Source: Gemmataceae bacterium
GTDB taxonomy: Bacteria; Planctomycetota; Planctomycetia; Gemmatales; Gemmataceae
Length of the DNA: 64,000 nucleotides
Direction of reading: 5' to 3'
NCBI GenBank assembly: GCA_036557565.1
Contig: DATBHJ010000114.1
Location: forward strand, 1,174 to 65,173
Under the pieces are notes generated by a model, which saw only the letters and a list, made by a program, of their open reading frames with translations, did no database searches and had not been told where the DNA came from. The translations under genes and the position numbers were made by a program. The number at the start of each line of letters is the position of its first letter. Position 1 is the stretch's first letter. Of the stretch, positions 39,504 to 59,034 are shown piece after piece.

Positions 39504-39626
39504 GACGCCATCCTATGTTCGGTCCACTCTAACGTAGAGAGAAAGCGTAGCCAACATCATAACTGGCCCGTTTCCTCCACCCCGATTCAATTATCTCTTC
39601 CGTCTAGTACACACAAGGATCAGTCC

Positions 39627-41465: not shown

Positions 41466-41508
41466 GATTGTTATGAAATCCCCGACGGTTGTCTCAGCCA
41501 AATCGCCG

Positions 41509-42432: not shown

Positions 42433-42506
42433 TATGTCATTTCTCAAGAGCTAACCTGAAATGTACCGCTCTGCGGTCTCGAAAAACGTGGGCGGCACCT
42501 TTTCTA

Positions 42507-44601: not shown

Positions 44602-44637
44602 GTACCCTTGCTCCTCTCCGTTCGATCATGCGAAGAA

Positions 44638-45429: not shown

Positions 45430-45592
45430 GTGGACGCGACCAAGTCAAAAAGCGAACTCCTGGCGCACTCCGTGCCCGTGGGTTGCAGTAACAACCCTCG
45501 CCCGCGAAGGGCAGACAACCGCCACAGCGAATCCCCCTGCTTGTGCGGGGAATATCGACTGCTCTCATCACATATAGGAGAGGGTTTGGCGG

Positions 45593-46180
45593 TCAGGCGC
45601 TCCGGGCATTAACCTGCCGGGCGTCAAGAGGCTGCAACATCCAGCCCTCGATTTCCACAGAGGCTCCACGCTGGATGAAGTCAACCTCGATAACAAATCG
45701 CATGTTTTTATCGCGTCGGATTACTTTTCCGTGGAGGCCGGCAAGGGGGCCCGCGGTTAGCACGACTGTCATACCCGATTGAAGACGATCCTCGGGCGCT
45801 ACAGGGGCGCCACACTCCATTAGCTGGTAGATTCTCTTCAAATCCGTTCTCAGCCGTTCTCCCTCGGAGACCGACAGCACGCGAATGATTTGGTTTGTTC
45901 GCAGAGCTTCCAGACGCGCGTTTTCATCGCCGCGCAGAAAGACATAGCTAGGAAACAGGGGGACATAGGATGCCAACGAACGCCCACGGATTTGTAACCG
46001 TTTTTGATACAGGGGGAGAAAGAAATCTATCCGGAGCGCTAGAAGTTTACGAGCCAATGCCTTCTCTGCTCGAGGACGAGTATGCAGGACCCACCACGAC
46101 TCTGTTGCTTCTGGGTCTTGACAAGACGCTGTCAAGAGGTCGGCTGGTTGCACGAATGGTTCCAGTGGTAGAAGTGGCAT
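45593..46180 (-). CDS. specialised NusG paralog (NGN + KOW; UpxY/RfaH/LoaP-like operon-specific antiterminator candidate)
   Basis: NGN domain: WWVLHTRPRAEKALARKLLALRIDFFLPLY...VPLFPSYVFLRGD. KOW motif: GMTVVLTAGPLAGLHGKVI. It is the first gene of the 30-kb minus-strand operon. ATG 46180. Confidence 0.85.
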   Translation of the reverse strand: MPLLPLEPFVQPADLLTASCQDPEATESWWVLHTRPRAEKALARKLLALRIDFFLPLYQKRLQIRGRSLASYVPLFPSYVFLRGDENARLEALRTNQIIRVLSVSEGERLRTDLKRIYQLMECGAPVAPEDRLQSGMTVVLTAGPLAGLHGKVIRRDKNMRFVIEVDFIQRGASVEIEGWMLQPLDARQVNARSA

Positions 46181-46294
46181 CGACAAAACCTTGGATTGAT
46201 CGCCTTCGATCCACCCGTCATCCTTCCTTAATTACCAACCTTCCCTTCCTTCATCCTGAAGGGGAAAACATCAATAAAAGCACCCTTATTCGCC

Positions 46295-46705: not shown

Positions 46706-48218
46706 GCACGTCTGCCGGGAGTGAGCATACACGCTAGTTGAAGGTTGGAGGACGTCAAGACGTCTCTTTTAGCCGCAGCGGGGCAGGGCAGGTGCTGAGG
46801 GCAGCCTGACCAAGAGGAGGTAATCTACTGTCGGAGGTCATAAGGAATTAGCAAATCAGAACTCTTGCGATTAGAATAACAATCAGACTCCGACTCGATA
46901 TCTTCGGTGCCACTGACAACATGACTGGTCCAAGAACCGATGGCAGATAAGACTGAGGGCGATGTTAAGAAAAGCATATTGCATGTCCCGAGTGATCTCG
47001 GTTGCCGAGCAGAGATTGCGAAAGCCGTGCCCGCACGATAAGGTGCGCTCGACGACACAGCGATACGCTCCTAGGCATACAAGTTGCGGCACCTCCTCGT
47101 CAGGAGGTGTACCGGCACTATCGGCGTCATCCGTTTTTCTGAGGACACAGGCGTCGTCACCGACCGCGACCAACCCGCAGCCATCGTCGCTATTTCCAAT
47201 CTCAAGCGACTTGCCGGATGGACAACTTACTGCAGAGAGTCGAGAGCGCTTATCGCCCACCTCAGAGCCTCGTATCTTGCACCTGCCTGATGACGCCGAG
47301 ATCCTAACGTCGTTGTCATTCTACCTCATCCGCCAACATTCTGCTACACCCGTTGTCTTAATTCATCGCAAATTCGCCTCATTATAGCGTGAGGCGAGCT
47401 TACCTTTCTTCTTTCGTGTAGTCCATCCTCACACGCTGCCCGTGCTGGGGACGGCCTACTTTGTCGCTTGGTACCCAGCTTGCAAGCCTGGGCGGTACGG
47501 TTTTCCCTAAACCGGACCGCCCGGGGGCAGGGGCGGTCCCATGATAGGAGATCACTCCCATGCTGACACAATGATCCTCCTCCGCTGCCGCTCACCTGCA
47601 GGCCTTCTTTCTCGTCATCGTCCTCCCAAGGATGCTGTCCCTTGGCCAAGTGTTCTTTCGCGGTATCCAGCGTCCACACCGCTAGGAAGACCGCCATCCA
47701 AGAAATGATTGGACTGGCTTGTTTTGGCACCTGAAACTGGCAGAAAGGGGCAAAGATACCACCCGCTTCCCGACCGCTCTCGCTTCCTCTGCCGCCCACG
47801 CTGAGCCAACGGTGCGCCACTTTTGTGGCCAGAAAAGAGCCAACGAAGTCCCGTCACCCGTGGCGCAGCAACAGCATCACTTCGCCCTCCGTGAACTTCC
47901 GGTTTTCGAGCCACTAGCCGTTCCGCCGGTAAGTGAGGTCCGACACGACAAGACTCAGTCGCCACCGGATGAAATCGTCTGCCTCAACCTGGATTTCGCC
48001 AGCAAGCGAGCCAGTTGAAGTAAGCATGATCGAGACATCGTCGAGGAGCTCATGCTTGGCGCGAGCGCGATCGACGTTGCCGATAATTACCAAGTCAGCC
48101 TCGTACCCATCTTGCAAAAGAGAAGAGTTTCACCAGTATCGGCAGGCCCTCTGCGGAACCCTGCCCTTGGCCCCGGCCTCTACCTCTACCATCAGCATTA
48201 TTTGAGCGAAGAGGAACC

Positions 48219-48413
48219 ATGAGCGCGTACTTGTTGTTCGAAGAATTCCACCTGACCGTTCTCGTCTCTGCGGACCTGGAAGAATCCGCGTGTGAAGCAA
48301 TCCACCGGATCCTCGTGAGTCGACCCTTTCACACCGCACTGGACTCCGCCGTCCGCCAAGTCGTCCGCCAATACTCCGATCTCGACCCGATCCGGGTCCG
48401 CATCTCCCACTAA
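48219..48413 (+). CDS. hypothetical 64-aa protein, first ORF of the cassette
   Basis: ATG preceded by a GAAGAGGA SD. Acidic, helical-looking sequence with no family recognised. Confidence 0.45.
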   Translation: MSAYLLFEEFHLTVLVSADLEESACEAIHRILVSRPFHTALDSAVRQVVRQYSDLDPIRVRISH

Positions 48414-48533
48414 CCGACTCAAAACAATTCTGCTTGCAGCGACAATCCAGAGTTGCCCTCAGCTGGTGCACCGGAATGTTGCCGCAGCGCCGGCCTCTTT
48501 TCACTTAACCCAAGCACAGGAGGAACTGTCCGG

Positions 48534-48896
48534 ATGTCACACATCGTCACGCTGCAAACGAAGGTGCACGATCACGCCGCCGTGGTTGCCGCTTGCCAGC
48601 GACTCAACCTCACTCCGCCGCAGCAAGGTACCGCTCGGCTCTACAGTGGGGAGGCTGAGGGGCTCATGGTGCAGCTGCCCGGCTGGCAATACCCCATCGT
48701 CATCGATACCCTCAGCGGCATCGTCCGCTACGACAACTTCGAGGGACGATGGGGCGAGCCACAACACCTCGATCGTTTCTTGCAACTCTATGCCGTCGAA
48801 CGAGCGAAACTGGAAGCGCGCAAGAAGGGTTACACCGTCAGCGAGCAAGCCCTCCAGGATGGAAGCATCCGAGTGCAAATCACCCAAGGCTTTTGA
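48534..48896 (+). CDS. DUF1257 / Ycf35-like protein
   Basis: ATG 48534 follows an AGGAGG SD. MSHIVTLQTKVHDHAAVVAACQRLNL...WQYPIVID...FLQLYAVERAKLEARKKGYTVSEQALQDGSIRVQI matches my recollection of the DUF1257 pattern (MSH..T..T start, ~120 aa). Confidence 0.75.
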   Translation: MSHIVTLQTKVHDHAAVVAACQRLNLTPPQQGTARLYSGEAEGLMVQLPGWQYPIVIDTLSGIVRYDNFEGRWGEPQHLDRFLQLYAVERAKLEARKKGYTVSEQALQDGSIRVQITQGF

Positions 48897-49069
48897 CTCG
48901 ACCATCTCTCCCTCTTGACAAAAACTCCTCTGGAGCGCCCGAGCCTGCACGGCACGCCAGTGAAGCATTGCCCTTTCTTCTGTGGATCTCGAACAAGAAC
49001 ACCGACAGCGGCGTGCCGGCCGAAGAGCCAGCACTAATCCTCTTTCTCAGTCCGTCACAAGGAACCTTC

Positions 49070-49258
49070 ATGCCGCGCATCATCGAGGTCATCGTCTCGC
49101 CGCAGGGCGAGGTCACCCTGCAAACCAAAGGCTACGCCGGCAGCGACTGCTTAGAGGCCAGCAGGTTTCTGGAGCAAGCGCTCGGCATCGTCACCAACGA
49201 CCGGAAAACGACGGAGTTCTATCAAAAGGAGACAGCCCAGCAACAACTCAGGCAATAA
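49070..49258 (+). CDS. DUF2997-like small protein
   Basis: 62 aa: MPRIIEVIVSPQGEVTLQTKGYAGSDCLEASRFLEQALGIVTNDRKTTEFYQ. This follows the family pattern I recall (I.V.pdG.V...v.G..G..C...T..le.aLG). Confidence 0.7.
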   Translation: MPRIIEVIVSPQGEVTLQTKGYAGSDCLEASRFLEQALGIVTNDRKTTEFYQKETAQQQLRQ

Positions 49259-49371
49259 CCCTTGCCCCCTCCGGCGGCCTCGCGTCGCGCAGAACGCCGA
49301 TGCGAGACCGCCTTCCTTCTACGATCAGCTCCAACTATCCCAAAAACCTGGCCCAAAGAAACGGACGGCTC

Positions 49372-50853
49372 ATGAACCTGACCGAACGCCTGACCGACTA
49401 TGTCCATGCCGCCTGCACCGGCTTGTGGATTCAGACCCAGGAAGCCGATGAGGCCGAGCGAGAAATCCTCCAGCACGCCAGCCAGCAGGACTGGAAGCTG
49501 GCTATCTGGGACGTGACCAACGGCCTGCGTCTGGCCGGAGCCAGCAGCCCGATCAGCACCGACACTCGCGATCCGCTGGCGGCACTGCGGGCCCTACCTT
49601 CTCTGGCCGAACGCAACGGCACAGCGCTATTACTGCTTCACCAATTCCATCGATTTCTCAATCATCCCGAAGTGATTCAGACGATGTTCAACCAACTCGT
49701 CGCTGGCAAGCAGCAACGCACCTTCCTGGTAGTTTTATCACCGCTGGTGCAAATCCCTGTCGAGCTGGAGAAGCTCTTCATCGTCCTCGAACATGCCCTC
49801 CCAGATCGCCAGCAACTCGAAGGGATCGCCCGCGAGCTTACCAGCGACGCGCCCGAGGACTTGCCCCAAGGAGAAGCTCTCGAGCGCGTTCTCGATGCCG
49901 CGGTGGGATTGACACGCTACGAAGCCGAGGCTGCCTTCGCCCTGTCCTTGACCCGGCACAATGCCATCCGGCCCGATAGCGTGTGGGAACTGAAAGCGCA
50001 GACGCTCAAGAAGAACAACCTGCTAACGCTGCACCGCGGCAGCGAACGCTTCGATACACTGGGTGGACTGGCCAGCCTCAAGGACTTCTGCCGCCGCGCC
50101 CTGCAAACGGGCAAGACGGTCAAGCCCCGTGGCATCTTACTTTTGGGTGTCCCCGGCACGGGCAAGAGTTGCTTCGCGCGGGCCCTGGGTAACGAGGTCG
50201 GCCGTCCCACCCTGCTATTGGACATCGGCGCGCTGTATGGCTCATTGGTTGGTTCTACCGAAACCAACATCCGCCAGGCTCTTCGCATAGCCGACGCCAT
50301 GAGTCCGTCGGTGCTTTTTGTGGATGAGCTGGAAAAAGCGCTCAGCGGCGTAGGTGGTGCGGGCGACAGCGGCGTGGCCACGCGGCTGTTTGGTACGTTT
50401 TTAACCTATCTGTCCGATCGAACCAGTGACACGTTTGTGATCGGAACCTGTAACGACATCTCCAAATTACCTCCGGAATTCTCCCGCGCCGAACGCTGGG
50501 ACGGGATTTTCTTTCTCGACCTTCCCCATAGCACCGACAAGGATGCCATTTGGACGCTCTATCGCCGTCAGTTCGGCATTGCGGACGGCCAGGCGCGACC
50601 GGATGATACAGACTGGACGGGGGCCGAAATCTGCTCGTGTTGCCGTCTGGCAGCCTTGCTGGACGTCCCCCTGACGCAAGCTGCCCATCACGTCGTGCCA
50701 GTGGCCGTCACTGCCGCCGAAGCCGTGGAACGGCTACGCAACTGGGCCTCGGGTCGCTGCCTGAGTGCCTCCTATCCGGGTATCTACACGCGTCACGGCA
50801 GTATGGGATCACGCCCCAGCCGAAAGATCCGACGCGATCCCTCCAGCAACTAA
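49372..50853 (+). CDS. Ycf46-like classical-clade AAA+ ATPase with ~230-aa N-terminal domain
   Basis: Walker A GILLLGVPGTGKS, Walker B SVLFVDELEKA, GDSGVATRLFGTFLTYL, second region of homology LPPEFSRAERWDGIFFLDLP, and C-terminal VERLRNWASGR. I prefer ATG 49372 (MNLTERLTDYV); the long track ORF begins inside the DUF2997 region. Confidence 0.85.
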   Translation: MNLTERLTDYVHAACTGLWIQTQEADEAEREILQHASQQDWKLAIWDVTNGLRLAGASSPISTDTRDPLAALRALPSLAERNGTALLLLHQFHRFLNHPEVIQTMFNQLVAGKQQRTFLVVLSPLVQIPVELEKLFIVLEHALPDRQQLEGIARELTSDAPEDLPQGEALERVLDAAVGLTRYEAEAAFALSLTRHNAIRPDSVWELKAQTLKKNNLLTLHRGSERFDTLGGLASLKDFCRRALQTGKTVKPRGILLLGVPGTGKSCFARALGNEVGRPTLLLDIGALYGSLVGSTETNIRQALRIADAMSPSVLFVDELEKALSGVGGAGDSGVATRLFGTFLTYLSDRTSDTFVIGTCNDISKLPPEFSRAERWDGIFFLDLPHSTDKDAIWTLYRRQFGIADGQARPDDTDWTGAEICSCCRLAALLDVPLTQAAHHVVPVAVTAAEAVERLRNWASGRCLSASYPGIYTRHGSMGSRPSRKIRRDPSSN

Positions 50854-51006
50854 GACTCCTTCGCCGGCGCCTTTCTGTCCCCATTGCCGTCGCCAGTTCC
50901 CATCCTTCCGCACTGGCAAGTGCTTGTCCCATTGCGTGACTTGATCACGGCAAGGGGCAGGTGCGGATGAAGATCGATCATCCTTCTCTTGGTCCAGGAG
51001 TCGTTC

Positions 51007-51966
51007 ATGAGCACCCTTCGCGTATCCGACATTCCGCTGGTTCCCGAAAGCCCGGCCCAGCGCCTGCGCCGGCTGGCCGCGGCCGTGCGCGTCCATTTCA
51101 CCTGGTGGGGAGTCCACCGCACCCTCACGGCACGTCAGAAGGAAGAAGTCGGCGTCACCTACGATGCTGATGCCCGCTTCCTCACTGCTGGCAAAAAGCT
51201 GGTGGATACCCGCCATGAAGCATTTCGCCGGCTGACAGCGCTGCGCACGCTGGTCAGCAATTACTGGCGCGGCCTGACGCTTCCCTACGTTGAGGTTGGC
51301 GTCCGCCTCATCCGCCAGAACGACATCGAGCCGTTTGTGCATACCTTGACCGGCTTCCGTGAAGAATTGACACAAGCAGAAGCCGATCTCAATGCTGTCT
51401 TCGAGGAGATTAAGGCAGATGCCCAACGCCGCCTGGGGCGGCTGTACGATCCGTCCGATTATCCGCCGGAAGTCCGGGGACTGTTCGGGCTGGACTGGGA
51501 TTTCCCCTCCGTAGAGCCGCCCAACTACCTGCTGCAAATAGCTCCGGAAGTTTACGAACAGGAGCAGCAGCGTATCGGCCGCCGCTTTGAGCAAGCCATT
51601 GAGCTGGCCGAGCAAGCGTTCCTGGGTGAGTTCGCGCGTCTGGTCTCGCATCTCACAGAAAGGTTGAACAGTACCTCTGATGGCGAGCGCAAGGTCTTCC
51701 GCGATTCAGCGGTGACGAACCTCATGGACTTCTTCGAGCGATTCCGCCATCTGAATGTGCGCTCGAACGTGCAATTGGACGAGTTGGTCGAGCAAGCGCA
51801 GCGCGTCGTTCAGGGGGTGGGTGCGCAGGAACTGCGCACGAGCGCGGACTTGCGGCAGCACGTGGCCACGCAGCTGGCCGGTGTGGAGTCGGCCCTGGAC
51901 GGCCTGCTGGTTGAACGGCCGCGGCGGAGCCTGGTGCGCAACCGGCCAAACCAGGGAGGACATTGA
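51007..51966 (+). CDS. hypothetical 319-aa helical protein (faint resemblance to DUF3150-type plasmid/ICE proteins, unverified)
   Basis: ATG 51007 with an AGGAG SD 6 nt upstream. The pattern is ...VHFTWWGVHRTL...AGKKLVD...LPYVEVGVRLI...LYDPSDYPPEV.... A long antisense ORF is judged a shadow. Confidence 0.7.
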   Translation: MSTLRVSDIPLVPESPAQRLRRLAAAVRVHFTWWGVHRTLTARQKEEVGVTYDADARFLTAGKKLVDTRHEAFRRLTALRTLVSNYWRGLTLPYVEVGVRLIRQNDIEPFVHTLTGFREELTQAEADLNAVFEEIKADAQRRLGRLYDPSDYPPEVRGLFGLDWDFPSVEPPNYLLQIAPEVYEQEQQRIGRRFEQAIELAEQAFLGEFARLVSHLTERLNSTSDGERKVFRDSAVTNLMDFFERFRHLNVRSNVQLDELVEQAQRVVQGVGAQELRTSADLRQHVATQLAGVESALDGLLVERPRRSLVRNRPNQGGH

Positions 51967-52226
51967 TGGAGCTACTCATCCGTCCGGGTGGCGAGGTTCG
52001 CTGTGTTTATGGCGAAGCCATCGACCTAGAGGCTCTGGGGCAGCCGCACATCACGCGGGCTAGCATGGTCGAGCCGGACGAGCAGGGGCGATGGTGGGCT
52101 GACCTTTCTCCCGTAAATGGTCCGCTCCTGGGTCCCTTTCGGCAGAGGACGCAGGCCCTGGACGCCGAAGAGGTATGGTTGAGCCGATATTGGTTAATGG
52201 CGCCGAGCTCGACTGCTCAGCAGTAG
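51966..52226 (+). CDS. hypothetical 86-aa protein, translationally coupled to the previous ORF
   Basis: TGATG stop/start overlap at 51964-51968. MELLIRPGGEVRCVYGEAIDLEALGQPHITRASMVEPDEQGRWWADLSPVNGPLLGPF. Confidence 0.6.
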   Translation: MELLIRPGGEVRCVYGEAIDLEALGQPHITRASMVEPDEQGRWWADLSPVNGPLLGPFRQRTQALDAEEVWLSRYWLMAPSSTAQQ

Positions 52227-52384
52227 CTTCGTGAGGACCGTGGACCCGCTCTTGTCTTGAAGCGAGGTTCGCTCAAGCCCAACACAGTCAACACGCAAGG
52301 AGACCGGCCCTTACCAGCCGACGCGCCGGTTCTCGAACATCCCATCCGCTGGCGATCGCAAACGTGGTCCAAGGAGAGAAGCTC

Positions 52385-52573
52385 GTGAAAGTAACCATCG
52401 AAAACGGCGAGCTGGTCATTCGGCTGCCCTTGAACAAGACGCCGATTCCCTCCAGTAGCGGCAAAACTTTGGTTATCGCCTCAACGCACGGCAATCAGAA
52501 GACGGATGCCGTCGTCAACGGCCAGCCCGTCGTCGTCGGGGTCAACGCCTACATCGCCCGGCTCACGCGCTGA
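52385..52573 (+). CDS. hypothetical 62-aa beta-rich protein
   Basis: GTG 52385 preceded by an AAGGAGAG SD. VKVTIENGELVIRLPLNKTPIPSSSGKTLVIASTHGNQKTDAVVNGQPVVVGVNAYI. Confidence 0.55.
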   Translation: MKVTIENGELVIRLPLNKTPIPSSSGKTLVIASTHGNQKTDAVVNGQPVVVGVNAYIARLTR

Positions 52574-52694
52574 GCTGGGAAACAAGAGGTGGGCCCTTCG
52601 CTGTCAGCCTCCCATTCACAAATGATGATTGCCCGTTCTCCCTGCACCGCAGGGCGGGCCGTCTTTCTTTCCCTCTTCTTGCCAAGGAGCCTGT

Positions 52695-52997
52695 GTGACG
52701 ACACCGACCGAAAAACCGCGCAAGGCCACGGCCCGAGACCTGTTCTTTTTCGCGAATCCCGAACATTGGCCGACGTGGCCGGTCCTGCCTGTGGTTCGCC
52801 GCCATGACGATGGCGAGATGCAATGTGGACTCCTTTACGACATCATGCACCTCAGCGGACGCACCGGCTTTAGCAGCACCGTCTTTTTGTGCAATATCTT
52901 CCTGATGCCACAGAATGAGGACGAGTTCCTTGCCTTGCCCAAGGAAGTATTCGACTCGCCCGAGGAAATGGCGGCGGCTGGCTGGTGCGTCGATTGA
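52695..52997 (+). CDS. hypothetical 100-aa protein
   Basis: GTG 52695 preceded by an AAGGAG SD. ...DLFFFANPEHWPTWPVLPVVRR...STVFLCNIFLMPQNEDEFLALPKEVFDSPEEMAAAGWCVD. Confidence 0.55.
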   Translation: MTTPTEKPRKATARDLFFFANPEHWPTWPVLPVVRRHDDGEMQCGLLYDIMHLSGRTGFSSTVFLCNIFLMPQNEDEFLALPKEVFDSPEEMAAAGWCVD

Positions 52998-53638
52998 AGA
53001 CTGGCTGGTTCTGCGTGGAGATGCCCGGGTAATTGAACCGAATTCTGGAAGGAATCAGATCGTGCCGCGAGTCCCGACGCTGCCTCGACTCCTGCGAAGG
53101 TAGCTCAAGCGGGTCGGTTCCGACTTTTGCCTGAACTACCTGCAGAAGATCAGCCGTCGCGTTTCGGGCCACAAGAGCCTTCCCGCCCCGAATCATTGGA
53201 ACTGTGAAGGTGATAAGAGCCAAGAGCCCAAGCGCATGCCAATGACCTCGACGCTGTTCGAGGACAACGGCGACAGTACCTATGCCAACGGTCTTTCAGC
53301 ATCTTCGGTCGAGTTGGTCACACGAGCACTTAAAGCCGGAGCTGCCGTCGCGCCGCTCCCAAGCTGCCAGGATTTCAAGGACGTCCCGCGCCTGGAAAGG
53401 CTTTTTGATTGATCATTGCTCCGGCAGGCGGGAAGGCCGCCGGCATAAGCGGCGCCAGAAATCCCATATGGATCCGGATGTCCCAAGCCGCTCGCCGCTG
53501 CTCCAGGCGTCGTTGGGGCGGCGATCTCACTTTATCGCTTGGCGGTCGGGGATAGTTTGCTCAAGAAGGAATCCACTCTGGCCAGGACGCACCGACCTTT
53601 TCCCCTTTCCCGAGTTCTTTCCACCAGGAGTCAGAATC

Positions 53639-55087
53639 GTGATCGTACTGCCACGCTCTCTGGCCCGGCAGTTCCGGGTCTTCTTGCGTCGTTGTCTACA
53701 ACCGCCGGGTCCACGCCAACCGCCATTCATTCGCCTGCAGGCCGACTCGCATGGCCTTGAACTCTTAGCACACCAGCAGGAATGCGTGATCGTCTACCAG
53801 CAGCCCGGAAAATGGGCCCGCGAAACGCTCTTCTTTCCTGCCGACGTGCTGGCCGACATCGAAGGCAAAGACGGCTCGGCCACGCTGGAAACAACCGGAG
53901 AAGGCAAGGGCGAAGCCCGCTGGGACGATGCTGGTAGCCCGCGCGTTAGACCCTTCGATTCAGTGAAGCCCGAAAGGATGCCCGAAGTGCCGGCGATGCC
54001 CGCACACTTTCAGCCCATCGAGCCGGCCTTTCTGCAAGCGCTGGCTGAGGCAACCCGGACAACCGCTCGTGATCGTGTTCACTATGCGCTTACGCGCCTC
54101 CAGTTGCGAGGACGGCGTGGCCAGCTGATAGCCACGGATGGACGGCAATTGCTCTTACAAGTCGGCTTCTCTTTGCCCTGGCCCGAGGATCTCCTCATTC
54201 CTGCTCTGCCGTTGTTCGTAAGCCGCGACCTGCCGGTTAGCGAGCCACTCGCCATTGGTCGCACCGACAAGCACGTCAGCTTGCGCATTGGTCCCTGGAC
54301 CTTTCATTTGGAGATTGACAAAGACGGCCGCTATCCCAACGTCGAGAGCGTCATCCCCAAGATAGACACCACGGCCAGCCGGCTGCATCTGTCCGAGGAC
54401 GATGCCCGCTTTCTTGTCCATGTCTTGCCCCGACTGCCAGGTAATGAAGACGGTTCGGCACCCGTGACCCTCGATCTGGGCCAAGAGGTGCGGCTGCGGG
54501 CACGAGCCGAGGACTCGCCCCAGATCAGCGAAGTTTTACTGTCCGGCTCGTCTTGTGAAGGGCCCCCTGTCCGCATCGCCTGCAACCGACGCTTTCTGTG
54601 GCGTGCCGTGCAATTGGGCTTCCGCGCCATTCTTATCCGCAACGCCACTACTCCCTTGGTGTGCCGTGATGAGACACGGACCTATCTGTTCATGCCGTTG
54701 GACGGCGTCTTGGCGCCCGCGGCCGACGCCGTGCGCATTGTTTCGGGCGAGACTCTCTCTGTCGTCACCGAGGCCAAACCGGAACTTCAACCCCAAAGAG
54801 ACAAACCCAAACCCGAGCCCAAAAGGAGCCGAGCAACCATGCCTCGATCTCAAACGAATGGTGAGGAACCACGCAACGGTCCTGCGGGAGTTCCAACGAC
54901 GCCGCGCCCCTCTTCCGAAGCGGAAGCGCCCGACGCGCTGGTAGAAGCGGAGGCCTTGCGCTCGCTGCTGCACGAAGCCCAGATGCGGCTCGGTCACCTG
55001 CTGGCCGCGCTCAAGCAGCAACGGCGGCACAACCGTGCCCTACGAGCCGCCATGGATTCGCTGCGCGGTCTGCGGCTGGATCGCTGA
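53639..55087 (+). CDS. DNA polymerase III beta sliding-clamp (DnaN) homolog with ~125-aa low-complexity + coiled-coil C-terminal extension
   Basis: GTG 53639 after an AGGAG SD. Four collinear DnaN-like motifs appear at DnaN-like spacing: QLIATDGRQLL (~aa 165), GRYPNVESVIPK (~230), ACNRRFLWRAVQLGF (~315) and TYLFMPLDG (~350). The tail is ...EAEALRSLLHEAQMRLGHLLAALKQQRRHNRALRAAMDSL. Confidence 0.8.
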   Translation: MIVLPRSLARQFRVFLRRCLQPPGPRQPPFIRLQADSHGLELLAHQQECVIVYQQPGKWARETLFFPADVLADIEGKDGSATLETTGEGKGEARWDDAGSPRVRPFDSVKPERMPEVPAMPAHFQPIEPAFLQALAEATRTTARDRVHYALTRLQLRGRRGQLIATDGRQLLLQVGFSLPWPEDLLIPALPLFVSRDLPVSEPLAIGRTDKHVSLRIGPWTFHLEIDKDGRYPNVESVIPKIDTTASRLHLSEDDARFLVHVLPRLPGNEDGSAPVTLDLGQEVRLRARAEDSPQISEVLLSGSSCEGPPVRIACNRRFLWRAVQLGFRAILIRNATTPLVCRDETRTYLFMPLDGVLAPAADAVRIVSGETLSVVTEAKPELQPQRDKPKPEPKRSRATMPRSQTNGEEPRNGPAGVPTTPRPSSEAEAPDALVEAEALRSLLHEAQMRLGHLLAALKQQRRHNRALRAAMDSLRGLRLDR

Positions 55088-55117
55088 ACCCCTTGATCCT
55101 GGACCTGGAGAGTGCTT

Positions 55118-55735
55118 ATGAGCTGGGATTCTGCGAGCAGCTGGCCCGTCCGCGGCAAGCTAGCCCGGCATCTGGGCCGTTTACAACAGCACCTGGATTC
55201 AGTCGGAGAACAGGTACGCGAGGCCGTTGCCAACGCTGTTGGCCGTACCGTGGCCGAGGCCGTCGGCGAAGCCGTCTACGATACCCTAGCCCCTTACGCG
55301 GATCCTTCGGCCCCTGAATCTCGCTATTACCACCGCGCTACTGACCGTTCTGTGCGCACCCGGCAAGATTGGGACGATCCAGCCTGGAGGCGCCCTGGAG
55401 ATTCCTCGCCTTGGCGTGATCCCTACGCTGATGACAACTACGACGAACCGCGTTACGACGACGGAGCCGAGGCGGAAGATCGATCCTCCCTCCGCGACGC
55501 GCCGCAGGCGCGGCGTTGGCGGCGGGCAATGGCGGCAGGCCTGCAAGCGGCAGCCTGGTGGCTGCAGCGGCATCCCGGTCAGTTGTCGCTCCTGGTGGCC
55601 TTGGCTGTTGGTTCGGTGGCCGGATTGGCGGTGCTGGCCGGTCCTGTTAGCGGCGTCGCAACTTTGGTGATGTCTGCTCTGGGCTTGGCCTACCTGCTCG
55701 ACCTGGTGCGCTTGTCTAGCGCCCTGCTGGGCTGA
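55118..55735 (+). CDS. tail-anchored membrane protein with xAVx repeat and acidic Trp/Tyr/Asp-rich linker
   Basis: ATG 55118 with a GGAG SD. EAVA-NAVG-RTVA-EAVG-EAVY repeat; DWDDPAWRRPGDSSPWRDPYADDNYDEPRYDD linker; C-terminal hydrophobic region LSLLVALAVGSVAGLAVLAGPVSGVATLVMSALGLAYLL. Confidence 0.7.
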   Translation: MSWDSASSWPVRGKLARHLGRLQQHLDSVGEQVREAVANAVGRTVAEAVGEAVYDTLAPYADPSAPESRYYHRATDRSVRTRQDWDDPAWRRPGDSSPWRDPYADDNYDEPRYDDGAEAEDRSSLRDAPQARRWRRAMAAGLQAAAWWLQRHPGQLSLLVALAVGSVAGLAVLAGPVSGVATLVMSALGLAYLLDLVRLSSALLG

Positions 55736-55780
55736 GACGGCACAACCGGAGCTACACGAAATGGAAGTGTGCCATCCTCA

Positions 55781-55808
55781 CCCGCAGCCGGCAGGCACCG
55801 GCTGCGGG
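55781..55808 (+). terminator. perfect 11-bp stem-loop between the two tail-anchored genes (possible attenuator or intrinsic terminator)
   Basis: CCCGCAGCCGG-caggca-CCGGCTGCGGG followed by TCTTGTTCTG and, 17 nt later, TTTTTTCTT. Read directly from the sequence. Confidence 0.45.
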
Positions 55809-55847
55809 TCTTGTTCTGAGTCAACTTTTTTCTTGGAGATTTCAGCC

Positions 55848-56360
55848 GTGACAGCGACAACGACAATGGGAACGCATACGAACGGCCAGACGCGGAAGAC
55901 GCTGGCCAGCCAGATCGACCGTTTGGACGGCATTCTCGACGGACTGGATGCTGCCCTGGCCGGGGCGGTGCAAGAGGCCGTCGAACAGGCTGTCAAGCAG
56001 GCCGTGCAGGCCGTCTTGGCCGAGGTGCTGACCAACCGCCAGCTACAAGAACAACTGCAACGAACTGCTCGGACAGCTGAGCCGGCTGGGGAATCTGAAT
56101 GTAAACGGAGCCTGCCTTACCGACTATGGCAAGCCACGACCGAGGGCGTGCGGCGCACCGTCCAAATGCTGAAGAAACGTGGCCGCGGTCTCGGCGTGGC
56201 CCTGGTAGCTGCCGGCGCGATGATGACCGGCATCGTCTATGCCGTCCGCAAGAAGTGCATCTTGATCGCCTCGAGCGTGTACCGACACGGCAAGTGCTTG
56301 GCTCTCAGGGCCATCTCGACCTTGACGAGCTTCCTGCCGTCCTTCGCATTTGGCAGCTAA
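55848..56360 (+). CDS. tail-anchored membrane protein with xAVx repeat (paralog-like to 55118..55735)
   Basis: GTG 55848 (GGAG SD) or ATG 55866. GAVQ-EAVE-QAVK-QAVQ-AVLA repeat. C-terminal TM LGVALVAAGAMMTGIVYAV. Confidence 0.65.
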   Translation: MTATTTMGTHTNGQTRKTLASQIDRLDGILDGLDAALAGAVQEAVEQAVKQAVQAVLAEVLTNRQLQEQLQRTARTAEPAGESECKRSLPYRLWQATTEGVRRTVQMLKKRGRGLGVALVAAGAMMTGIVYAVRKKCILIASSVYRHGKCLALRAISTLTSFLPSFAFGS

Positions 56361-57394
56361 GGAAGAGAGTGGAGAGATGAGGTCGGCCTGGCCGGTCTAT
56401 CGCTCGGTTGTAGCGGCACAAGCCGTACCGGAGCGAGTAATCCCGCGCAGGTGCACAACTTGATCTCTCCACTCTTTTCGGCATCGTGGCGGCTAGGGCC
56501 AGCGTCTCGTTACGGCATCCGTCCGGCACGTCAACGATATGGCCCTGAATACATCCAGTCGAGGTTTAGACGTTGGCGGCTGGTCGATTCTTGCCGTCGG
56601 GTGCATCCCGTCGCCCAGACACAGTACAGCGAGACGGACCTGCCAGCGTTGACGGAGTTGGCGACTCAGGTGCTGCTGTCACATATCACGACCGTCGAAT
56701 TGCTCGTAGATAGGATCGATGGAGCCCGCGAGATTTCTGGACAGTTTCTGGAAATAGTCAAACCAATACTGAACGCTGAGAAACACGCTCGCTTGCTCTT
56801 CAACTGCATTTACCGTCCTGCGGAGCCATCCGCGGCCCATCACGCTCATCGCTTTTTTTAACTATCAGAACGAGCTCTGCGGCGGTGGAAATCGTAATTC
56901 TGCCTCTCAATTATGGTCATCTGCTTTCATTGTCGGAACGATCAGGGATACCGTCAGGACAAGCCCTATCCGGTTGGCACAAGAGGTATTTCATCGAGCG
57001 CCGAGACGCCACTGGACGAAACGCTCACGGGCGCTGGCGACCCGCTCGCAGCGAAGGATTAATGGGCTTTCAACGACCCCCATGATTCATGTTCTTTCGG
57101 ATCAAGTTATATGGCACAATCTCCTTCCTTTTCGGGACTGCTGGGACAGACACCATCACCCGCTTGACGTAGGACCGCTTCCTTTGGGCCGTTATGCTCG
57201 CCGAAACTCTATCGCGTCGCCAGTTCCTGGCGGCGGCCCGTACGCTCACCTCGTGGCCATCCCACTATGTCTACTTCGCCGGCAAAGACCCCTGGCCGCC
57301 GAGCAGGAAACCGCAAGCAGACACTTGCGAGATGGGCCACCGAGGCGCTAATCAAATACGGACAAAGAAAGGGGAACTCCAGTCGATAAAACCC

Positions 57395-57423: not shown

Positions 57424-57488
57424 CCCCCTCGAAAGTCACGGATGAAGCTCGGTGAGCAATTGCGGACGAGCGATGGATTGGAGTCTTG

Positions 57489-58331
57489 ATGCTAAATTCA
57501 GATTTTGACGCTGTGTTCGATGAGATGTTGCACAGTCCAATACCCATCTCATCCCAAGAACGCCTGGCGCTGCTGCACCAACTGCTCGGTGAGCCTGCCT
57601 GCCGCCAACTTGGAATTTACAAGATCCCGGACGGCTTTAGGCTGTCCGTGGTCATGCCCGTATACAACGAAGAGCGCTGGCTAGCCGAGATCGTGCGGCG
57701 CGTGCAGGCAATTTCTATTCCTAAAGAGATCGTCATTGTCGATGATTGCAGCACGGACAATACGCGCGAGATCCTCAAGCAGCTCGAGAGCGATGAAGTC
57801 CGCGTCTTTTACCAACCTTTCAACCAAGGTAAGGGCGCAGCCATGCGGCGCGGTTTCCAAGAGGCGACCGGCGACGTTGTTCTTGTGCAAGACGCCGACC
57901 TCGAATACGATCCGAGCGAATACTCGCGGCTGTTGCAACCAATTCTGGAGGACCGCGCCGACGTCGTCTACGGTTCGCGTTTCGTTGGCGAGACACATCG
58001 CGTGCTGTACTTTTGGCACTATGTCGCCAACAACATGTTGACCATGCTGTCGAACATGTTCACCAATCTGAACCTGACTGACATGGAGACGTGCTACAAG
58101 GTTTTCCGCCGCGAAGTGCTGCAAGGCGTCACTCTGAAATCGAATCGCTTCGGTTTCGAGCCGGAGATCACGGCCAAGATCGCGCGGAAGCGTCCGGGCC
58201 AACCCTCCTGGCGCGTCTATGAAATCCCTATCAGCTACTCCGGGCGAACGTACGAGGAGGGCAAGAAAATCGGGCTCAAGGACGCCTTTAATGCCTTTTA
58301 CTGTATCCTGCGCTATCGTTTCTTCGATTGA
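57489..58331 (+). CDS. glycosyltransferase family 2 (dolichyl/polyprenyl-phosphate hexosyltransferase-like)
   Basis: [49 protein letters not shown] and VVYGSRF. Confidence 0.9.
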
Positions 58332-58374: not shown

Positions 58375-59034
58375 TCAAGCCGCCAAGTTCCATACCGACA
58401 CTTCCACCGCAAATCGTCCGTGAGCAGCTATCCATTCGAAGGTAGCATCCGATAGTTCCTCCTTCGACGGACAACAGTGGTTGCGCGTGATCGTTTCATG
58501 CAAGCGCCACGAGACACGCTCGATCGGATTCGCCTCGGGAGCGTAGGTAGGCAGGAAGGGAAGCACCAAGCGCTCTCCCTACTGACGCAGGTAATCCTGC
58601 ACCGCTCGACGATCATGGAAGCGCACGTTGTCGCAAATCACATGAATGCGTCGGTAGCAACGTAGTCGGCAGCGAAGGTCGCCCTAGTGTGCCACGAACA
58701 GTCCTGCGTTACGCAGCCGACCGGGATCGGAGAGCAAAAGCGCTCCTGTCCGCCAATGTAAGGAGCCGGCTCGGTGGGGTTTCTCATTGTTACCCGACGT
58801 TACTACTTCGGCCTGCTCGCCGCGAGACATCCAGCAGCAACCAATTCTGGAGTTGAGGTGAACCTCCACCTCTTCCTCGAAGACCACCTTTTCGTCGTCT
58901 GGTAGGTTGTCCATTTGCCGCACAACCAATGTCCACGGCAGGGAAGCAAAAGCCCTCGTTCTCAATTCGGGGAAGGATGAAGGCCAGGAGCGTGACCGGA
59001 GGCCAGAGGGGTCCTTGTTGATATTCTCATTCAT
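58375..59034 (-). pseudogene. IS630-family transposase remnant with in-frame stops
   Basis: ...VHLNSRIGCCWMSRGEQAEVVTSGNNEKPHRAGSLHWRTG..., then RRIHVICDNVRFHDRRAVQDYL, then LPFLPTYAPEANPIERVSWRL. The pieces are interrupted by stops and the N-terminal DNA-binding part is absent. Confidence 0.8.

What the first reader, a model, noticed from the sequence alone, without database searches (positions are those of the whole stretch)
53639..55087. Orphan, divergent beta-sliding-clamp homolog with a coiled-coil tail
The protein shows four collinear DnaN hallmark motifs at DnaN-like positions: ATDG(R/H)xL near 165, (F/Y)PxxxxVIP near 232, a CN/FN..(F/Y)L...(L/V) block near 315, and a C-terminal (M/F)MP(L/M) near 351. 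It is otherwise highly diverged and carries an extra ~125 residues: a Pro/Lys/Glu-rich linker plus an amphipathic coiled coil. There is no dnaA/recF/gyrB context, so it is not the replicative clamp. A ring-shaped DNA-encircling protein with an added oligomerisation or recruitment tail, encoded next to an AAA+ ATPase, is unusual.
Basis: partly seen in the sequence, partly recalled or inferred. Interest (0 to 1): 0.7.

Follow-up and report, generated by a model that had tools for sequence, protein, structure and literature searches.

The report
Tailed accessory sliding clamp of Planctomycetes
This gene encodes a real but non-replicative relative of the bacterial DNA sliding clamp with an added flexible linker and helical tail; it belongs to a large, unnamed family found almost only in Planctomycetes, where it sits in a conserved multi-copy gene cassette of unknown function.

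Summary
ORF 53639-55087 (+, 482 aa, GTG start) is a distant but true homolog of the beta sliding clamp (DnaN).

- **Homology.** A family profile hits only beta clamps in the PDB (E=9e-9). The AlphaFold model (pLDDT 86) superposes on full-length clamps (Foldseek E=2e-21, TM 0.77).
- **Conserved sites.** Invariant residues cluster in the partner-binding pocket, the dimer interface and the first helix (the helix bearing basic channel residues in canonical clamps).
- **Added parts.** A 40-86 aa disordered linker is followed by a constant 50-aa basic helix with heptad periodicity.
- **Not an orphan.** The family has at least 1,428 clusters at 50% identity, is almost entirely in Planctomycetota, and reaches at least four copies per genome.
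- **Cassette.** It lies in a ~9 kb same-strand cassette. Upstream is a DUF1257/DUF2997/AAA+/DUF3150-like/small-protein module, also found clamp-free on Nitrospirota plasmids. Downstream, most versions carry a Cas4-like nuclease; some carry an ATP-dependent ligase, and one a Y-family polymerase. This window's version has two predicted membrane proteins instead.
- **Best reading.** It is an accessory DNA-encircling docking platform for cassette DNA-processing proteins. Whether the purpose is repair, mobile-element maintenance or defence is unresolved.
- **Verdict.** New variant of a known kind; moderately high interest.

The parts
47596..48219 (+). Remnant of the cassette's first gene, a ~240-aa protein with a C-terminal helix-turn-helix. 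It is a pseudogene here, with two in-frame stop codons.
   Evidence: tblastn with the L001 homolog gives 39% identity over 168 aa, with stops at about 47683 and 48016. The family HMM matches two pieces of it. The resemblance to LuxR/sigma region-4 HTH is weak only (PDB profile E=0.05-0.2; no Pfam hit).
48528..48896 (+). DUF1257-like small protein.
   Evidence: Pfam PF06868 E=7e-4, 20.2 bits, just under the 22.2-bit cut-off. It is collinear in 22 of 33 loci with enough flank. A homolog lies beside the AAA gene on a Manganitrophus plasmid, where it is annotated DUF1257.
49070..49258 (+). DUF2997 small protein (62 aa).
   Evidence: Pfam PF11211 E=5.7e-15, above the cut-off. Precomputed hits agree in L062, L001, L063, L069 and L070. 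My earlier coordinate, 49063, was out of frame.
49348..50853 (+). Classical-clade AAA+ ATPase with a ~250-aa N-terminal domain.
   Evidence: Pfam AAA PF00004 E=1e-23. Full-length match to PHROG 8638, E=1e-79. CDC48, FtsH and IetA models match only the ATPase domain. Relatives occur on plasmids and in mycobacteriophage Corndog gp96.
50989..51966 (+). DUF3150-like protein (gD). It is more conserved than the clamp among the fetched loci: 41-78% identity versus 30-64% for the clamp.
   Evidence: BLASTP E=2e-17 to an annotated DUF3150 protein. The family HMM hits DUF3150 proteins of Burkholderiales plasmids at E~1e-27. It lies upstream of the clamp in 36 of 44 loci. The AF2 model has pLDDT 68, is mostly helical, and has no PDB fold match.
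51963..52226 (+). Conserved 87-aa protein (gE). Its start overlaps the gD stop by 4 nt.
   Evidence: Present upstream of the clamp in 37 of 44 loci. A homolog follows DUF3150 on the Manganitrophus plasmid (E=7e-27). No Pfam or PDB match.
52364..52573 (+). Small beta-rich ORF (gF), found only in the Gemmataceae-type cassettes.
   Evidence: ORF listed. Homologs in L001 and L003. Only a weak bPH_8 Pfam hit.
52629..52997 (+). Small ORF (gG) upstream of the clamp, specific to this subtype. The JGI gene call is 52695-52997.
   Evidence: Homologs upstream of the clamp in L001, L003, L025, L044, L055 and L060. No family match.
53639..54748 (+). Clamp core, residues 1-370: three beta-clamp domains.
   Evidence: AF2 pLDDT above 90 over most of the core. 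Foldseek PDB hits are all beta clamps (E=1.7e-21, TM 0.77, ~385 aligned columns). BFVD hits are phage beta clamps.
54749..54934 (+). Disordered Pro/Glu/Lys/Arg-rich linker, residues 371-432.
   Evidence: pLDDT below 50 at 372-390 and 398-428. Length is 40-86 aa and poorly conserved across the family.
54935..55087 (+). Conserved 50-aa basic amphipathic helix (residues 433-482) plus the stop codon.
   Evidence: Helix 433-477 with pLDDT of 83-93 in the blocks covering residues 431-470. Always 50 aa with net charge about +5. L454 is invariant, and L440, L444, R450 and K459 are at least 90% conserved. The 3.5-residue hydrophobic periodicity is the strongest peak.
55112..55735 (+). gI: 207-aa protein with an Ala/Val/Glu-rich N-terminal helix and a C-terminal hydrophobic (predicted membrane) segment. 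It starts 25 nt after the clamp stop.
   Evidence: ORF. Homologs follow the clamp in L001, L003, L063 and L070. The membrane segment is read directly from the sequence. No family match.
55761..56360 (+). gJ: 199-aa protein with a similar helical N-terminus and a hydrophobic segment.
   Evidence: ORF. Homologs in L001, L003 and L004. Only weak, non-specific family hits.
56362..56479 (.). Inverted repeat (22-nt arms, 74-nt spacer) directly after the last cassette gene. It marks the right end of the block conserved among loci.
   Evidence: Repeat found. Cross-locus conservation ends at about 56.5 kb.

Best explanation
**What it is.** The gene encodes an accessory, non-replicative member of the beta-sliding-clamp superfamily. 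Residues 1-370 fold as the three clamp domains. They most likely pair head-to-tail into a ring around double-stranded DNA.

**How it most likely works.**
- The ring keeps the hydrophobic pocket that canonical clamps use to hold polymerases, ligases, nucleases and the loader.
- It adds a second docking or oligomerisation device: a constant 50-aa basic amphipathic helix on a 40-86-aa flexible tether.
- It is one component of a ~9-kb same-strand cassette that has spread and duplicated within Planctomycetota.
- In that cassette it most likely acts as a DNA-bound platform. It would position cassette-encoded DNA-processing proteins on DNA: a Cas4-like PD-(D/E)XK nuclease in about half of the versions, an ATP-dependent ligase in some, and a DinB-like polymerase in one.
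- The upstream module (DUF1257, DUF2997, classical AAA+, DUF3150-like, gE) is shared with plasmids. It probably assembles, remodels or regulates the complex. It is not an RFC-type loader.
- In this window the nuclease and its partner protein f5 are replaced by two predicted membrane proteins, so this version may tether clamp-bound DNA to the membrane.

**Shown:** the fold, the conservation of pocket, interface and first-helix residues, the tail architecture, the family size and taxonomic range, and the gene linkage.

**Inferred:** ring formation, DNA loading, which proteins bind the pocket or the tail, the role of the AAA+ protein, and the biological purpose.
For: **Fold and homology.**

**Functional-site conservation** (mapped on E. 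coli beta, whose sequence was verified identical to 1mmi_A; mapping):
- Pocket: T172 to T (34/35), G174 to G (35/35), P242 to P (35/35), M362 to M (28/35), P363 to P (28/35), M364 to L (35/35), R152 to R (32/35).
- Five of the 15 invariant core columns fall in the 25 pocket positions, against 1.1 expected (P=0.003).
- Dimer interface: F106 to W95 (35/35), E304 to E298 (35/35).
- DNA contact: R24 to R26 (30/35).
- The first helix carries invariant R6 and R17 and near-invariant R10 and R13.

**Non-replicative status.**
- No Pfam or NCBIfam DnaN hit.
- No dnaA/recF context.
- Up to four copies per assembly, 38-95% identical to each other.
- Core pI is 8.6, against 5.2 for E. coli beta.

**Linkage.**
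- Upstream: DUF3150-like 36/44, gE 37/44, AAA+ 24/33.
- Downstream: f5 30/45, Cas4-like PDDEXK_1 21/45.
- The Cas4-like match is E=1e-33. Its family consensus keeps a DfKT motif, a QLllY motif and four conserved Cys.

**Clamp-client enzymes in the variable region.**
- ATP-dependent ligase in 6-7 loci.
- A DinB-like polymerase in L049 (IMS E=6e-52) carrying a QQDLF motif.

**Island-like placement.**
- Flanks differ between close relatives: glycan genes here, type I-C cas genes in L063, a serine recombinase and PrimPol-ParB in L070.
- Copies within one genome are mosaics of conserved and replaced blocks.
Against: - No partner has been tied to the pocket. No cassette protein has a conserved QLxLF-type motif. 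The QLSLL in gI lies at a membrane segment and is not conserved.
- This window's version lacks the nuclease, f5, ligase and polymerase. The platform idea is therefore borrowed from other versions.
- The pocket enrichment disappears when columns conserved at 90% or more are added (7 of 58, P=0.12). Part of the motif conservation may be structural.
- A neutral-to-basic core is atypical for a freely sliding clamp.
- Dimerisation and DNA encirclement were not modelled.
- The cassette's HTH gene is a pseudogene here, so this copy may be partly decayed.
Confidence: 0.55

Rival explanations
1. The cassette is an anti-phage or anti-plasmid defence system. The clamp loads on invading DNA (free ends, nicks or replication intermediates) and recruits or licenses the Cas4-like nuclease. 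The AAA+ module acts as sensor or regulator. This overlaps with the best explanation and differs only in purpose.
For: - Multi-copy, with diversified paralogs in one genome and a mosaic variable region.
- It sits beside type I-C cas genes in L063, beside transposases, and near a DUF2726 gene in L001.
- It combines a nuclease with an ATPase.
- The AAA domain's best PADLOC matches are IetA models (E=1e-13).
Against: - No PADLOC model matches the clamp or any other cassette protein.
- The IetA match covers only the generic ATPase domain.
- The five-gene upstream module is carried by plasmids and putative viral contigs, that is, by the presumed targets.
- Ligase and Y-family polymerase accessories fit repair better than destruction.
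- This window's version has no nuclease.
Confidence: 0.2
2. The gene is the processivity factor of an integrated mobile element (a prophage- or plasmid-derived replication/recombination module). It would recruit the host Pol III or the element's own enzymes to replicate or repair the element's DNA.
For: - A single-sequence scan matches the phage clamp family PHROG 947 (E=7.6e-7), while Pfam DnaN models do not match.
- There is a weak tblastn hit to the clamp of Synechococcus phage S-H1.
- The upstream module occurs on plasmids, in phage Corndog and in IMG/VR contigs.
- L070 has a large serine recombinase and a PrimPol-ParB gene nearby.
- Within-genome copies reach 86-95% identity, implying recent duplication.
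Against: - The conserved block contains no replicative polymerase, helicase, primase, integrase, capsid genes, origin-like iterons or terminal repeats.
- The clamp family is absent from 72,556 plasmids.
- It occurs in only one IMG/VR contig, where it is truncated beside an inserted prophage.
Confidence: 0.15
3. The protein is a clamp-dependent transcription device like phage T4 late transcription. The DNA-loaded clamp would activate cassette promoters through the cassette's HTH (sigma region-4-like) protein.
For: An HTH protein family is part of the cassette in 13 loci. It lies directly next to the clamp submodule in L031 and L054.
Against: - The sigma-like assignment is not significant (no Pfam hit).
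- The gene is missing from most loci and is a pseudogene here.
- No clamp-binding motif was found in it.
Confidence: 0.04
4. It is the cell's replicative DnaN, or a decaying pseudogene with no function.
For: It has the clamp fold and retains the pocket. The neighbouring HTH gene is decayed.
Against: - Multiple divergent copies per genome.
- No dnaA/recF context.
- No match to DnaN Pfam or NCBIfam models.
- The ORF is intact and full length, with invariant functional residues across at least 1,428 clusters, so it is under selection.
Confidence: 0.02

Closest known systems
Bacterial beta sliding clamp DnaN (E. coli beta, PDB 1mmi/2pol; Pfam PF00712/PF02767/PF02768)
   Same: - Three-domain clamp fold, collinear over the whole length.
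- Pocket motifs conserved: ATDG, P242, MP(M/L).
- Interface residues F106/E304 have equivalents, as does R24.
   Different: - About 17% identity, and below the Pfam and NCBIfam thresholds.
- Neutral-to-basic core instead of acidic.
- An extra ~126-residue linker plus helix.
- Multi-copy, not next to dnaA/recF, and part of an accessory cassette.
Phage-encoded beta clamps (PHROG 947; e.g. Synechococcus phage S-H1 'DNA polymerase III beta subunit'; BFVD models)
   Same: - Best single-sequence family match (E=7.6e-7).
- Structural similarity equal to that with cellular clamps (TM up to 0.79).
- Encoded outside the host replication locus.
   Different: - Phage clamps sit in replication modules with polymerases. 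Here there is no polymerase, and the family is essentially absent from viral contigs and phage genomes.
- Most phage clamps are 340-390 aa and lack the tail.
Extra DnaN paralogs in bacteria (for example the second DnaN of griselimycin-producing Streptomyces, or Bacillus DnaN-2). Recalled from my own knowledge, not tested here.
   Same: A second clamp gene beside the replicative one, with the client-binding pocket retained.
   Different: Those paralogs are close DnaN relatives of normal length that Pfam recognises. This family is far more diverged, carries a tail, and is embedded in a conserved cassette.
Eukaryotic 9-1-1 checkpoint clamp, where Rad9 has a long disordered C-terminal tail. This is an analogy from my own knowledge.
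   Same: A non-replicative DNA clamp. A flexible C-terminal extension adds a recruitment or regulatory function and works with repair nucleases, polymerases and ligase.
   Different: PCNA-type two-domain subunits forming a heterotrimer with a dedicated RFC-like loader. There is no evolutionary link beyond the clamp fold, and no RFC-like loader in this cassette.
Plasmid/ICE modules with DUF3150: AAA+/DUF1257/DUF2997/DUF3150 on Manganitrophus plasmids, and MoxR-like ATPase-DUF3150-VWA next to PRTRC systems in Burkholderiales
   Same: The upstream half of the cassette is homologous: AAA+ at 42% identity, DUF3150 at E~1e-27 to 1e-33, and gE at E=7e-27.
   Different: - Those modules have no clamp, f5 or Cas4-like gene.
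- No PRTRC or VWA proteins occur here.
- Their function is unknown; only one paper in the library even mentions DUF3150.

Membership tests
Beta sliding clamp superfamily (fold level) | Three tandem clamp domains arranged as a half-ring | tested here: met
   AF2 pLDDT 86 and pTM 0.73. Foldseek top 50 PDB hits are all beta clamps, with E down to 1.7e-21, TM(target) 0.70-0.79 for all but one and rmsd 3.5-4.6 A over 377-402 columns.
Beta sliding clamp superfamily (fold level) | Detectable sequence homology, collinear over the protein | tested here: met
   The profile against the PDB hits only beta clamps, E=8.7e-9. hhalign gives probability 93% over 1-356 vs 2-366. PHROG 947 matches at E=7.6e-7.
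Canonical replicative DnaN (Pfam PF00712/PF02767/PF02768; NCBIfam dnaN) | Scores above the curated thresholds of the DnaN models | tested here: not met
   No Pfam family at E<=0.1. No NCBIfam family at E<=0.01. None of the homologs listed has a precomputed Pfam domain.
Canonical replicative DnaN (Pfam PF00712/PF02767/PF02768; NCBIfam dnaN) | Single essential copy in the dnaA-dnaN-recF(-gyrB) neighbourhood | tested here: not met
   Neighbours are cassette genes and glycosyltransferases. There are up to four copies per assembly. No other dnaN lies in the window. The rest of the source genome could not be searched.
Canonical replicative DnaN (Pfam PF00712/PF02767/PF02768; NCBIfam dnaN) | Hydrophobic client-binding pocket between domains II and III | tested here: met
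   At sequence level only. T166, G168, P233, M352, P353, L354 and R148 are conserved at the pocket positions. Invariant columns are enriched in the pocket (P=0.003), but not when near-invariant columns are added.
Canonical replicative DnaN (Pfam PF00712/PF02767/PF02768; NCBIfam dnaN) | Head-to-tail homodimer ring | tested here: inconclusive
   W95 (equivalent to F106) and E298 (equivalent to E304) are invariant, but the I272/L273 equivalents are not kept. No multimer modelling tool was available.
Canonical replicative DnaN (Pfam PF00712/PF02767/PF02768; NCBIfam dnaN) | Acidic protein with a basic inner channel | tested here: not met
   Core median pI is 8.6 with net charge +3, against pI 5.2 and net -11 for E. 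coli beta. Conserved Arg residues do lie on helix 1 and at R26.
Canonical replicative DnaN (Pfam PF00712/PF02767/PF02768; NCBIfam dnaN) | Loaded by the gamma/tau-delta-delta' clamp loader and confers processivity on Pol III | not testable with these tools
   This needs biochemistry. The cassette's ATPase is a classical AAA, not an RFC/gamma-type loader.
Phage beta clamps (PHROG 947) | Encoded in a viral genome within a replication module | tested here: not met
   One weak phage hit. One IMG/VR contig, carrying a truncated copy beside an inserted prophage. No polymerase, helicase or primase in the cassette.
Known anti-phage defence systems (PADLOC-DB v2) | Cassette proteins match the models of a described system | tested here: not met
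   Only the AAA domain matches IetA/TRIP13 models, and only partially. The clamp, gD, gE, gG and gI have no hits at E<=0.01, apart from one weak chance-level match for gD (typeIV_Cas11, E=0.002, 0 stretches).
Plasmid AAA+/DUF1257/DUF2997/DUF3150 module | Homologous AAA+, DUF1257, DUF2997, DUF3150 and gE genes on one strand | tested here: met
   The gene order differs: the plasmid has AAA first, the cassette has DUF1257 first.
PRTRC system | PRTRC proteins A-F, ThiF-family E1 and ParB | tested here: not met
   No NCBIfam PRTRC model matches any cassette protein. PRTRC genes only neighbour DUF3150 on Burkholderiales plasmids.

The most novel reading that the evidence does not exclude
The cassette is a new kind of clamp-centred DNA-surveillance machine specific to Planctomycetota. 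A classical-clade AAA+ remodeller, working with DUF1257, DUF2997, DUF3150 and gE cofactors, would take the place of an RFC-type loader. It would open, load or unload the tailed clamp by acting on its disordered C-terminal tether and helix. The loaded clamp would then deliver a Cas4-like nuclease, ligase or polymerase, or membrane anchors in this version, to DNA ends or foreign DNA. That would be a previously unknown way of operating a sliding clamp, and possibly a new defence or repair system.
Probability: 0.12. Interest if true: 0.85.

Novelty: new variant of a known kind. Interest (0 to 1): 0.6.

Why it matters
**Why sliding clamps matter here.** Sliding clamps are the universal hubs of DNA replication and repair. 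In bacteria they are almost always the single DnaN.

**What is new.**
- This is a large family (at least 1,428 clusters at 50% identity) that keeps the clamp's client pocket.
- It has gained a tethered helical tail and a basic surface.
- It has spread in multiple copies through one phylum.
- It lies inside a cassette that mixes plasmid-type AAA+/DUF3150 genes with classic clamp clients: a nuclease, a ligase and a Y-family polymerase.

**What it could lead to.**
- It gives a concrete, testable entry point into the function of four widespread domains of unknown function (DUF1257, DUF2997, DUF3150, and the DUF3072-like C-terminus of f5).
- It raises the question of whether clamps can be operated without an RFC-type loader.
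- It bears on the poorly known genome-maintenance and mobile-element biology of Planctomycetes.
- At minimum it justifies a new protein-family model, so that these genes stop being annotated as 'hypothetical'.

Tried and rejected
1. **Single-sequence searches.** Pfam, NCBIfam, PADLOC and PDB found nothing for the clamp. Only profiles, PHROGs and structure revealed the homology.
2. **Clamp-binding motifs.** A regex scan and a conservation scan of all cassette families found nothing conserved. The QLSLL in gI is part of a hydrophobic segment and is not conserved. The tail's own C-terminal SLRQLQL resembles QLxL but lacks the final aromatic residue, and the model gives it low confidence. I left that as speculation.
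3. **gD (DUF3150-like) structure.** The AF2 model reaches only pLDDT 68 and has no Foldseek or PDB-profile match.
4. **gE and f5 profiles.** No meaningful PDB match.
5. **'Sigma-like' HTH gene.** No Pfam hit, and only E=0.05-0.2 to LuxR/sigma-28 HTHs. I downgraded it to 'HTH protein'.
6. **Mobile-element boundaries.** There are no terminal direct or inverted repeats and no iterons. There are no tRNAs and no Rfam hits. Promoter and terminator scans do not exceed shuffles.
7. **Apparent conservation at 57.0-57.5 kb.** These were short, generic twin-arginine-like matches at unrelated positions.
8. **Free-standing tail homologs.** None exist. All short hits are pieces of split clamp genes.
9. **Literature.** Nothing describes this family or cassette.
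10. **Correction.** My DUF2997 reference 49063-49258 was out of frame. Its negative family scans and its low locus count are therefore void. The correct gene is 49070-49258.
11. **Caution on pseudogenes.** Many split clamp ORFs (L003, L036, L041, L060, L061 and others) come from long-read MAGs, so the frameshifts may be sequencing errors. I do not count them as evidence of decay.
Full report
**1. The observation**

An open frame runs 53282-55087 on the + strand. Full-length homologs of 465-482 aa begin with the same MIxIPRxLARQFRAVLRR sequence. An AGGAG lies 8 nt upstream. The product is 482 aa.

They align with their E. coli beta counterparts in a global profile-sequence alignment.

**2. Is it a clamp?**

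Single-sequence searches of Pfam, NCBIfam, PADLOC and the PDB found nothing. Four other lines of evidence are clear.

- PHROG 947, 'DNA polymerase processivity factor', matches at E=7.6e-7 over residues 110-354.
- A profile of 35 family members hits 24 PDB sequences. Every one is a beta sliding clamp. The best is E=8.7e-9, and the matches are collinear, e.g. 128-356 against 131-366.
- The AlphaFold2 model is confident (pLDDT 86, pTM 0.73). Residues 1-370 are folded.
- Foldseek places the model on full-length beta clamps at E=1.7e-21, TM 0.77 and rmsd 3.7 A over 387 columns. Phage beta clamps match equally well.

The homology claim is therefore confirmed at both sequence-profile and fold level.

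**3. Which clamp features are kept?**

I aligned it to the family (probability 93%) and mapped known functional residues.

| Surface | E. coli residue | Family equivalent (of 35) |
|---|---|---|
| Client pocket | T172 | T166, 34 |
| Client pocket | G174 | G168, 35 |
| Client pocket | P242 | P233, 35 |
| Client pocket | M362 | M352, 28 |
| Client pocket | P363 | P353, 28 |
| Client pocket | M364 | L354, 35 |
| Client pocket | R152 | R148, 32 |
| Dimer interface | F106 | W95, 35 |
| Dimer interface | E304 | E298, 35 |
| DNA contact | R24 | R26, 30 |

- Five of the 15 invariant core columns lie in the 25 pocket positions, against 1.1 expected (P=0.003).
- That enrichment vanishes when columns conserved at 90% or more are included (P=0.12).
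- The I272/L273 interface equivalents are not kept.
- The first helix carries invariant R6 and R17 and near-invariant R10 and R13. In canonical clamps this helix lines the channel.
- Unlike canonical clamps, the core is neutral to basic: median pI 8.6, against 5.2 for E. coli beta.

**4. The tail**

The model is disordered at 372-428 and forms one long helix at 433-477.

- Across the family the linker varies from 40 to 86 aa and is poorly conserved.
- The tail is always 50 aa, with net charge about +5.
- L454 is invariant. L440, L444, R450 and K459 are nearly so.
- The hydrophobic pattern has its strongest periodicity at 3.5 residues, with polar Q/H and S/A/N at central core positions.
- This fits a coiled coil, but oligomerisation was not tested.
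- No other protein in any fetched locus contains a related helix.

**5. Family size and range**

An exhaustive profile search of 1.84 billion representatives gave these counts, nearly all about 470 aa and including the tail.

| E-value threshold | Clusters at 50% identity |
|---|---|
| 1e-30 | 1,428 |
| 1e-10 | 2,634 |
| 1e-3 | 4,421 |

- All named hits are 'hypothetical protein', and none has a Pfam domain.
- A scan of one genome per species found 59 loci. Nearly all are in Planctomycetota: Gemmataceae, Isosphaeraceae, Pirellulaceae, Planctomycetaceae, Thermoguttaceae and Phycisphaerae. They include the complete genomes of Kolteria novifilia Pan216 and Anatilimnocola sp. NA78.
- Two loci have outlying labels. 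One is titled Candidatus Nealsonbacteria and one only 'bacterium'. These assignments were not checked.
- Several assemblies hold two to four copies, 38-95% identical to each other. Two copies lie on a single 7.5-Mb contig.
- The family is absent from 72,556 plasmids.
- In 50,697 phage genomes, only a true phage DnaN matches, at E=7e-4.
- IMG/VR has a single hit. There the clamp gene is truncated next to a serine-recombinase prophage.

**6. The cassette**

Comparing 64 loci shows a same-strand block. In the window it spans about 47.5-56.5 kb. The typical order is:

HTH protein, DUF1257-like, DUF2997, classical AAA+, variable region, DUF3150-like gD, gE, small proteins (f7, or gF/gG), clamp, then either f5 plus a Cas4-like PD-(D/E)XK nuclease, or gI plus gJ.

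Linkage among loci with enough flank:

| Gene | Position | Loci |
|---|---|---|
| gD | upstream | 36 of 44 |
| gE | upstream | 37 of 44 |
| AAA+ | upstream | 24 of 33 |
| DUF1257 | upstream | 22 of 33 |
| f5 | downstream | 30 of 45 |
| Cas4-like | downstream | 21 of 45 |
| gI | downstream | 5 of 45 |

- The Cas4-like gene matches PDDEXK_1 at E=1e-33. Its family consensus keeps a DfKT motif, a QLllY motif and four conserved Cys.
- Three loci keep clamp-f5, with or without Cas4, but lack the upstream module nearby. The cassette therefore consists of two sub-modules.
- The variable region holds an ATP-dependent DNA ligase with an N-terminal zinc-finger-like Cys/His motif in 6-7 loci. In L002 it also carries a WGR domain.
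- L049 has a DinB-like Y-family polymerase (IMS E=6e-52) carrying a QQDLF motif.
- Selfish insertions also occur: a group II intron and an IS element.
- Nuclease, ligase and Y-family polymerase are all classic clamp clients. That statement rests on established knowledge of beta and PCNA.

**7. Origin of the upstream module**

- AAA+, DUF1257, DUF2997, DUF3150 and a gE homolog occur together, without any clamp, on Candidatus Manganitrophus (Nitrospirota) plasmids.
- They also occur together in two IMG/VR contigs.
- DUF3150 also sits between a MoxR-like ATPase and a VWA protein, next to PRTRC systems, on Burkholderiales plasmids.
- Relatives of the AAA+ occur with Hsp70/GrpE on a cyanobacterial plasmid, in a contractile-injection-system locus, and as Corndog gp96.
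- This points to a protein-remodelling role rather than clamp loading. The ATPase is a PF00004 classical AAA.
- None of these modules has a known function.

**8. This window's version**

- It is the Gemmataceae subtype, shared with L001, L003, L063 and L070.
- It has no f5, f7, Cas4-like, ligase or polymerase gene.
- gI and gJ follow the clamp after gaps of 25 and 26 nt. Each has an Ala/Val/Glu-rich helix and a hydrophobic C-terminal segment, read directly from the sequence.
- The HTH gene has two in-frame stop codons. All other cassette genes are intact.
- The cassette interrupts a run of glycan-biosynthesis genes. A GT4/methyltransferase/DUF218 operon headed by a NusG paralog lies on one side. 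A GT2 gene and transposase fragments lie on the other.
- The close relative L063 sits beside type I-C cas genes.
- L070 sits beside a serine recombinase and a PrimPol-ParB gene.
- Placement is therefore island-like. However, no integrase, terminal repeats or iterons belong to the conserved block.

**9. Interpretation**

- *Best supported (confidence 0.55):* an accessory clamp that encircles DNA and serves as a docking platform for cassette proteins, through the retained pocket and the added tail. The plasmid-type AAA+ module would act as assembler or regulator.
- *Not decided:* whether the purpose is DNA repair or damage tolerance, maintenance of a mobile element, or defence. The defence reading (0.2) and the mobile-element replication reading (0.15) remain open.
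- *Unlikely:* a T4-like transcription role (0.04), and a replicative or pseudogene status (0.02).
- *Weak points:* no client has been identified. This version lacks the enzymes. Ring formation was not modelled.

**10. Novelty**

- The fold and pocket are those of a known protein kind.
- The family itself has no model in Pfam or NCBIfam and no literature.
- It has a unique tail, a basic surface, a multi-copy phylum-restricted distribution, and a new gene context.
- I rate it a new variant of a known kind, with interest 0.6.

Noticed in passing
window 47596-48219 (+): The cassette's HTH-protein gene has two in-frame stop codons, at about 47683 and 48016. The AAA+, gD, gE and clamp genes are intact, so this copy may have lost its own regulator.
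   Followed up: partly
window 38076-46186 (-) and 57486-58331 (+): The cassette sits inside a glycan-biosynthesis region. On the minus strand are GT4 glycosyltransferases, an FkbM-type methyltransferase and DUF218, headed by a NusG paralog (45593-46186). A GT2 gene lies on the other side. This looks like an insertion into a polysaccharide locus.
   Followed up: partly
window 58375-59034 (-): A fragment of a DDE_3 (IS630-type) transposase lies just downstream of the cassette and the GT2 gene.
   Followed up: no
L066 1-4000 (IMG/VR UViG_3300047160_025969): The clamp gene is cut off at about residue 265. It is followed by a large serine recombinase and phage-like genes. A prophage may use this multi-copy gene as its integration site.
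   Followed up: no
L038 10001-15800: The clamp core ends at about residue 409. The tail, f5 and the Cas4-like gene lie inverted about 4 kb downstream. This is either an inversion with a breakpoint in the linker or an assembly error.
   Followed up: no
L049 5310-7641: A DinB-like Y-family polymerase with a QQDLF motif about 40 residues from its end lies inside the cassette's variable region. Next to it is an ATP-dependent ligase with an N-terminal zinc-finger-like Cys/His motif. Both are candidate clamp clients.
   Followed up: partly
L045 3829-5706; L007 5841-7247: A group II intron reverse transcriptase/maturase and an IS transposase are inserted in the variable region of two cassettes.
   Followed up: no
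BFVD hit A0A2H4PAZ9 (rank 22): A 469-aa viral protein aligns with the model over 458 columns. It may be a phage clamp with an extension of similar length.
   Followed up: no
P0241: The top-scoring family member is 635 aa with two matched stretches. This suggests a partial internal duplication or a fusion.
   Followed up: no
L012, L023, L041 and other loci, 3-6 kb downstream of the clamp: Large formylglycine-generating-enzyme (FGE-sulfatase)-like proteins recur near the cassette in 16 loci, mostly on the opposite strand. The family label comes from reading the sequence and was not confirmed with Pfam.
   Followed up: no
L032 4528-7220: In a Singulisphaera locus the usual upstream module is replaced by a weakly VWA-like protein (VWA_2 E=0.007, below the cut-off) and a DUF6744 protein. 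This may parallel the ATPase-DUF3150-VWA arrangement on Burkholderiales plasmids.
   Followed up: no
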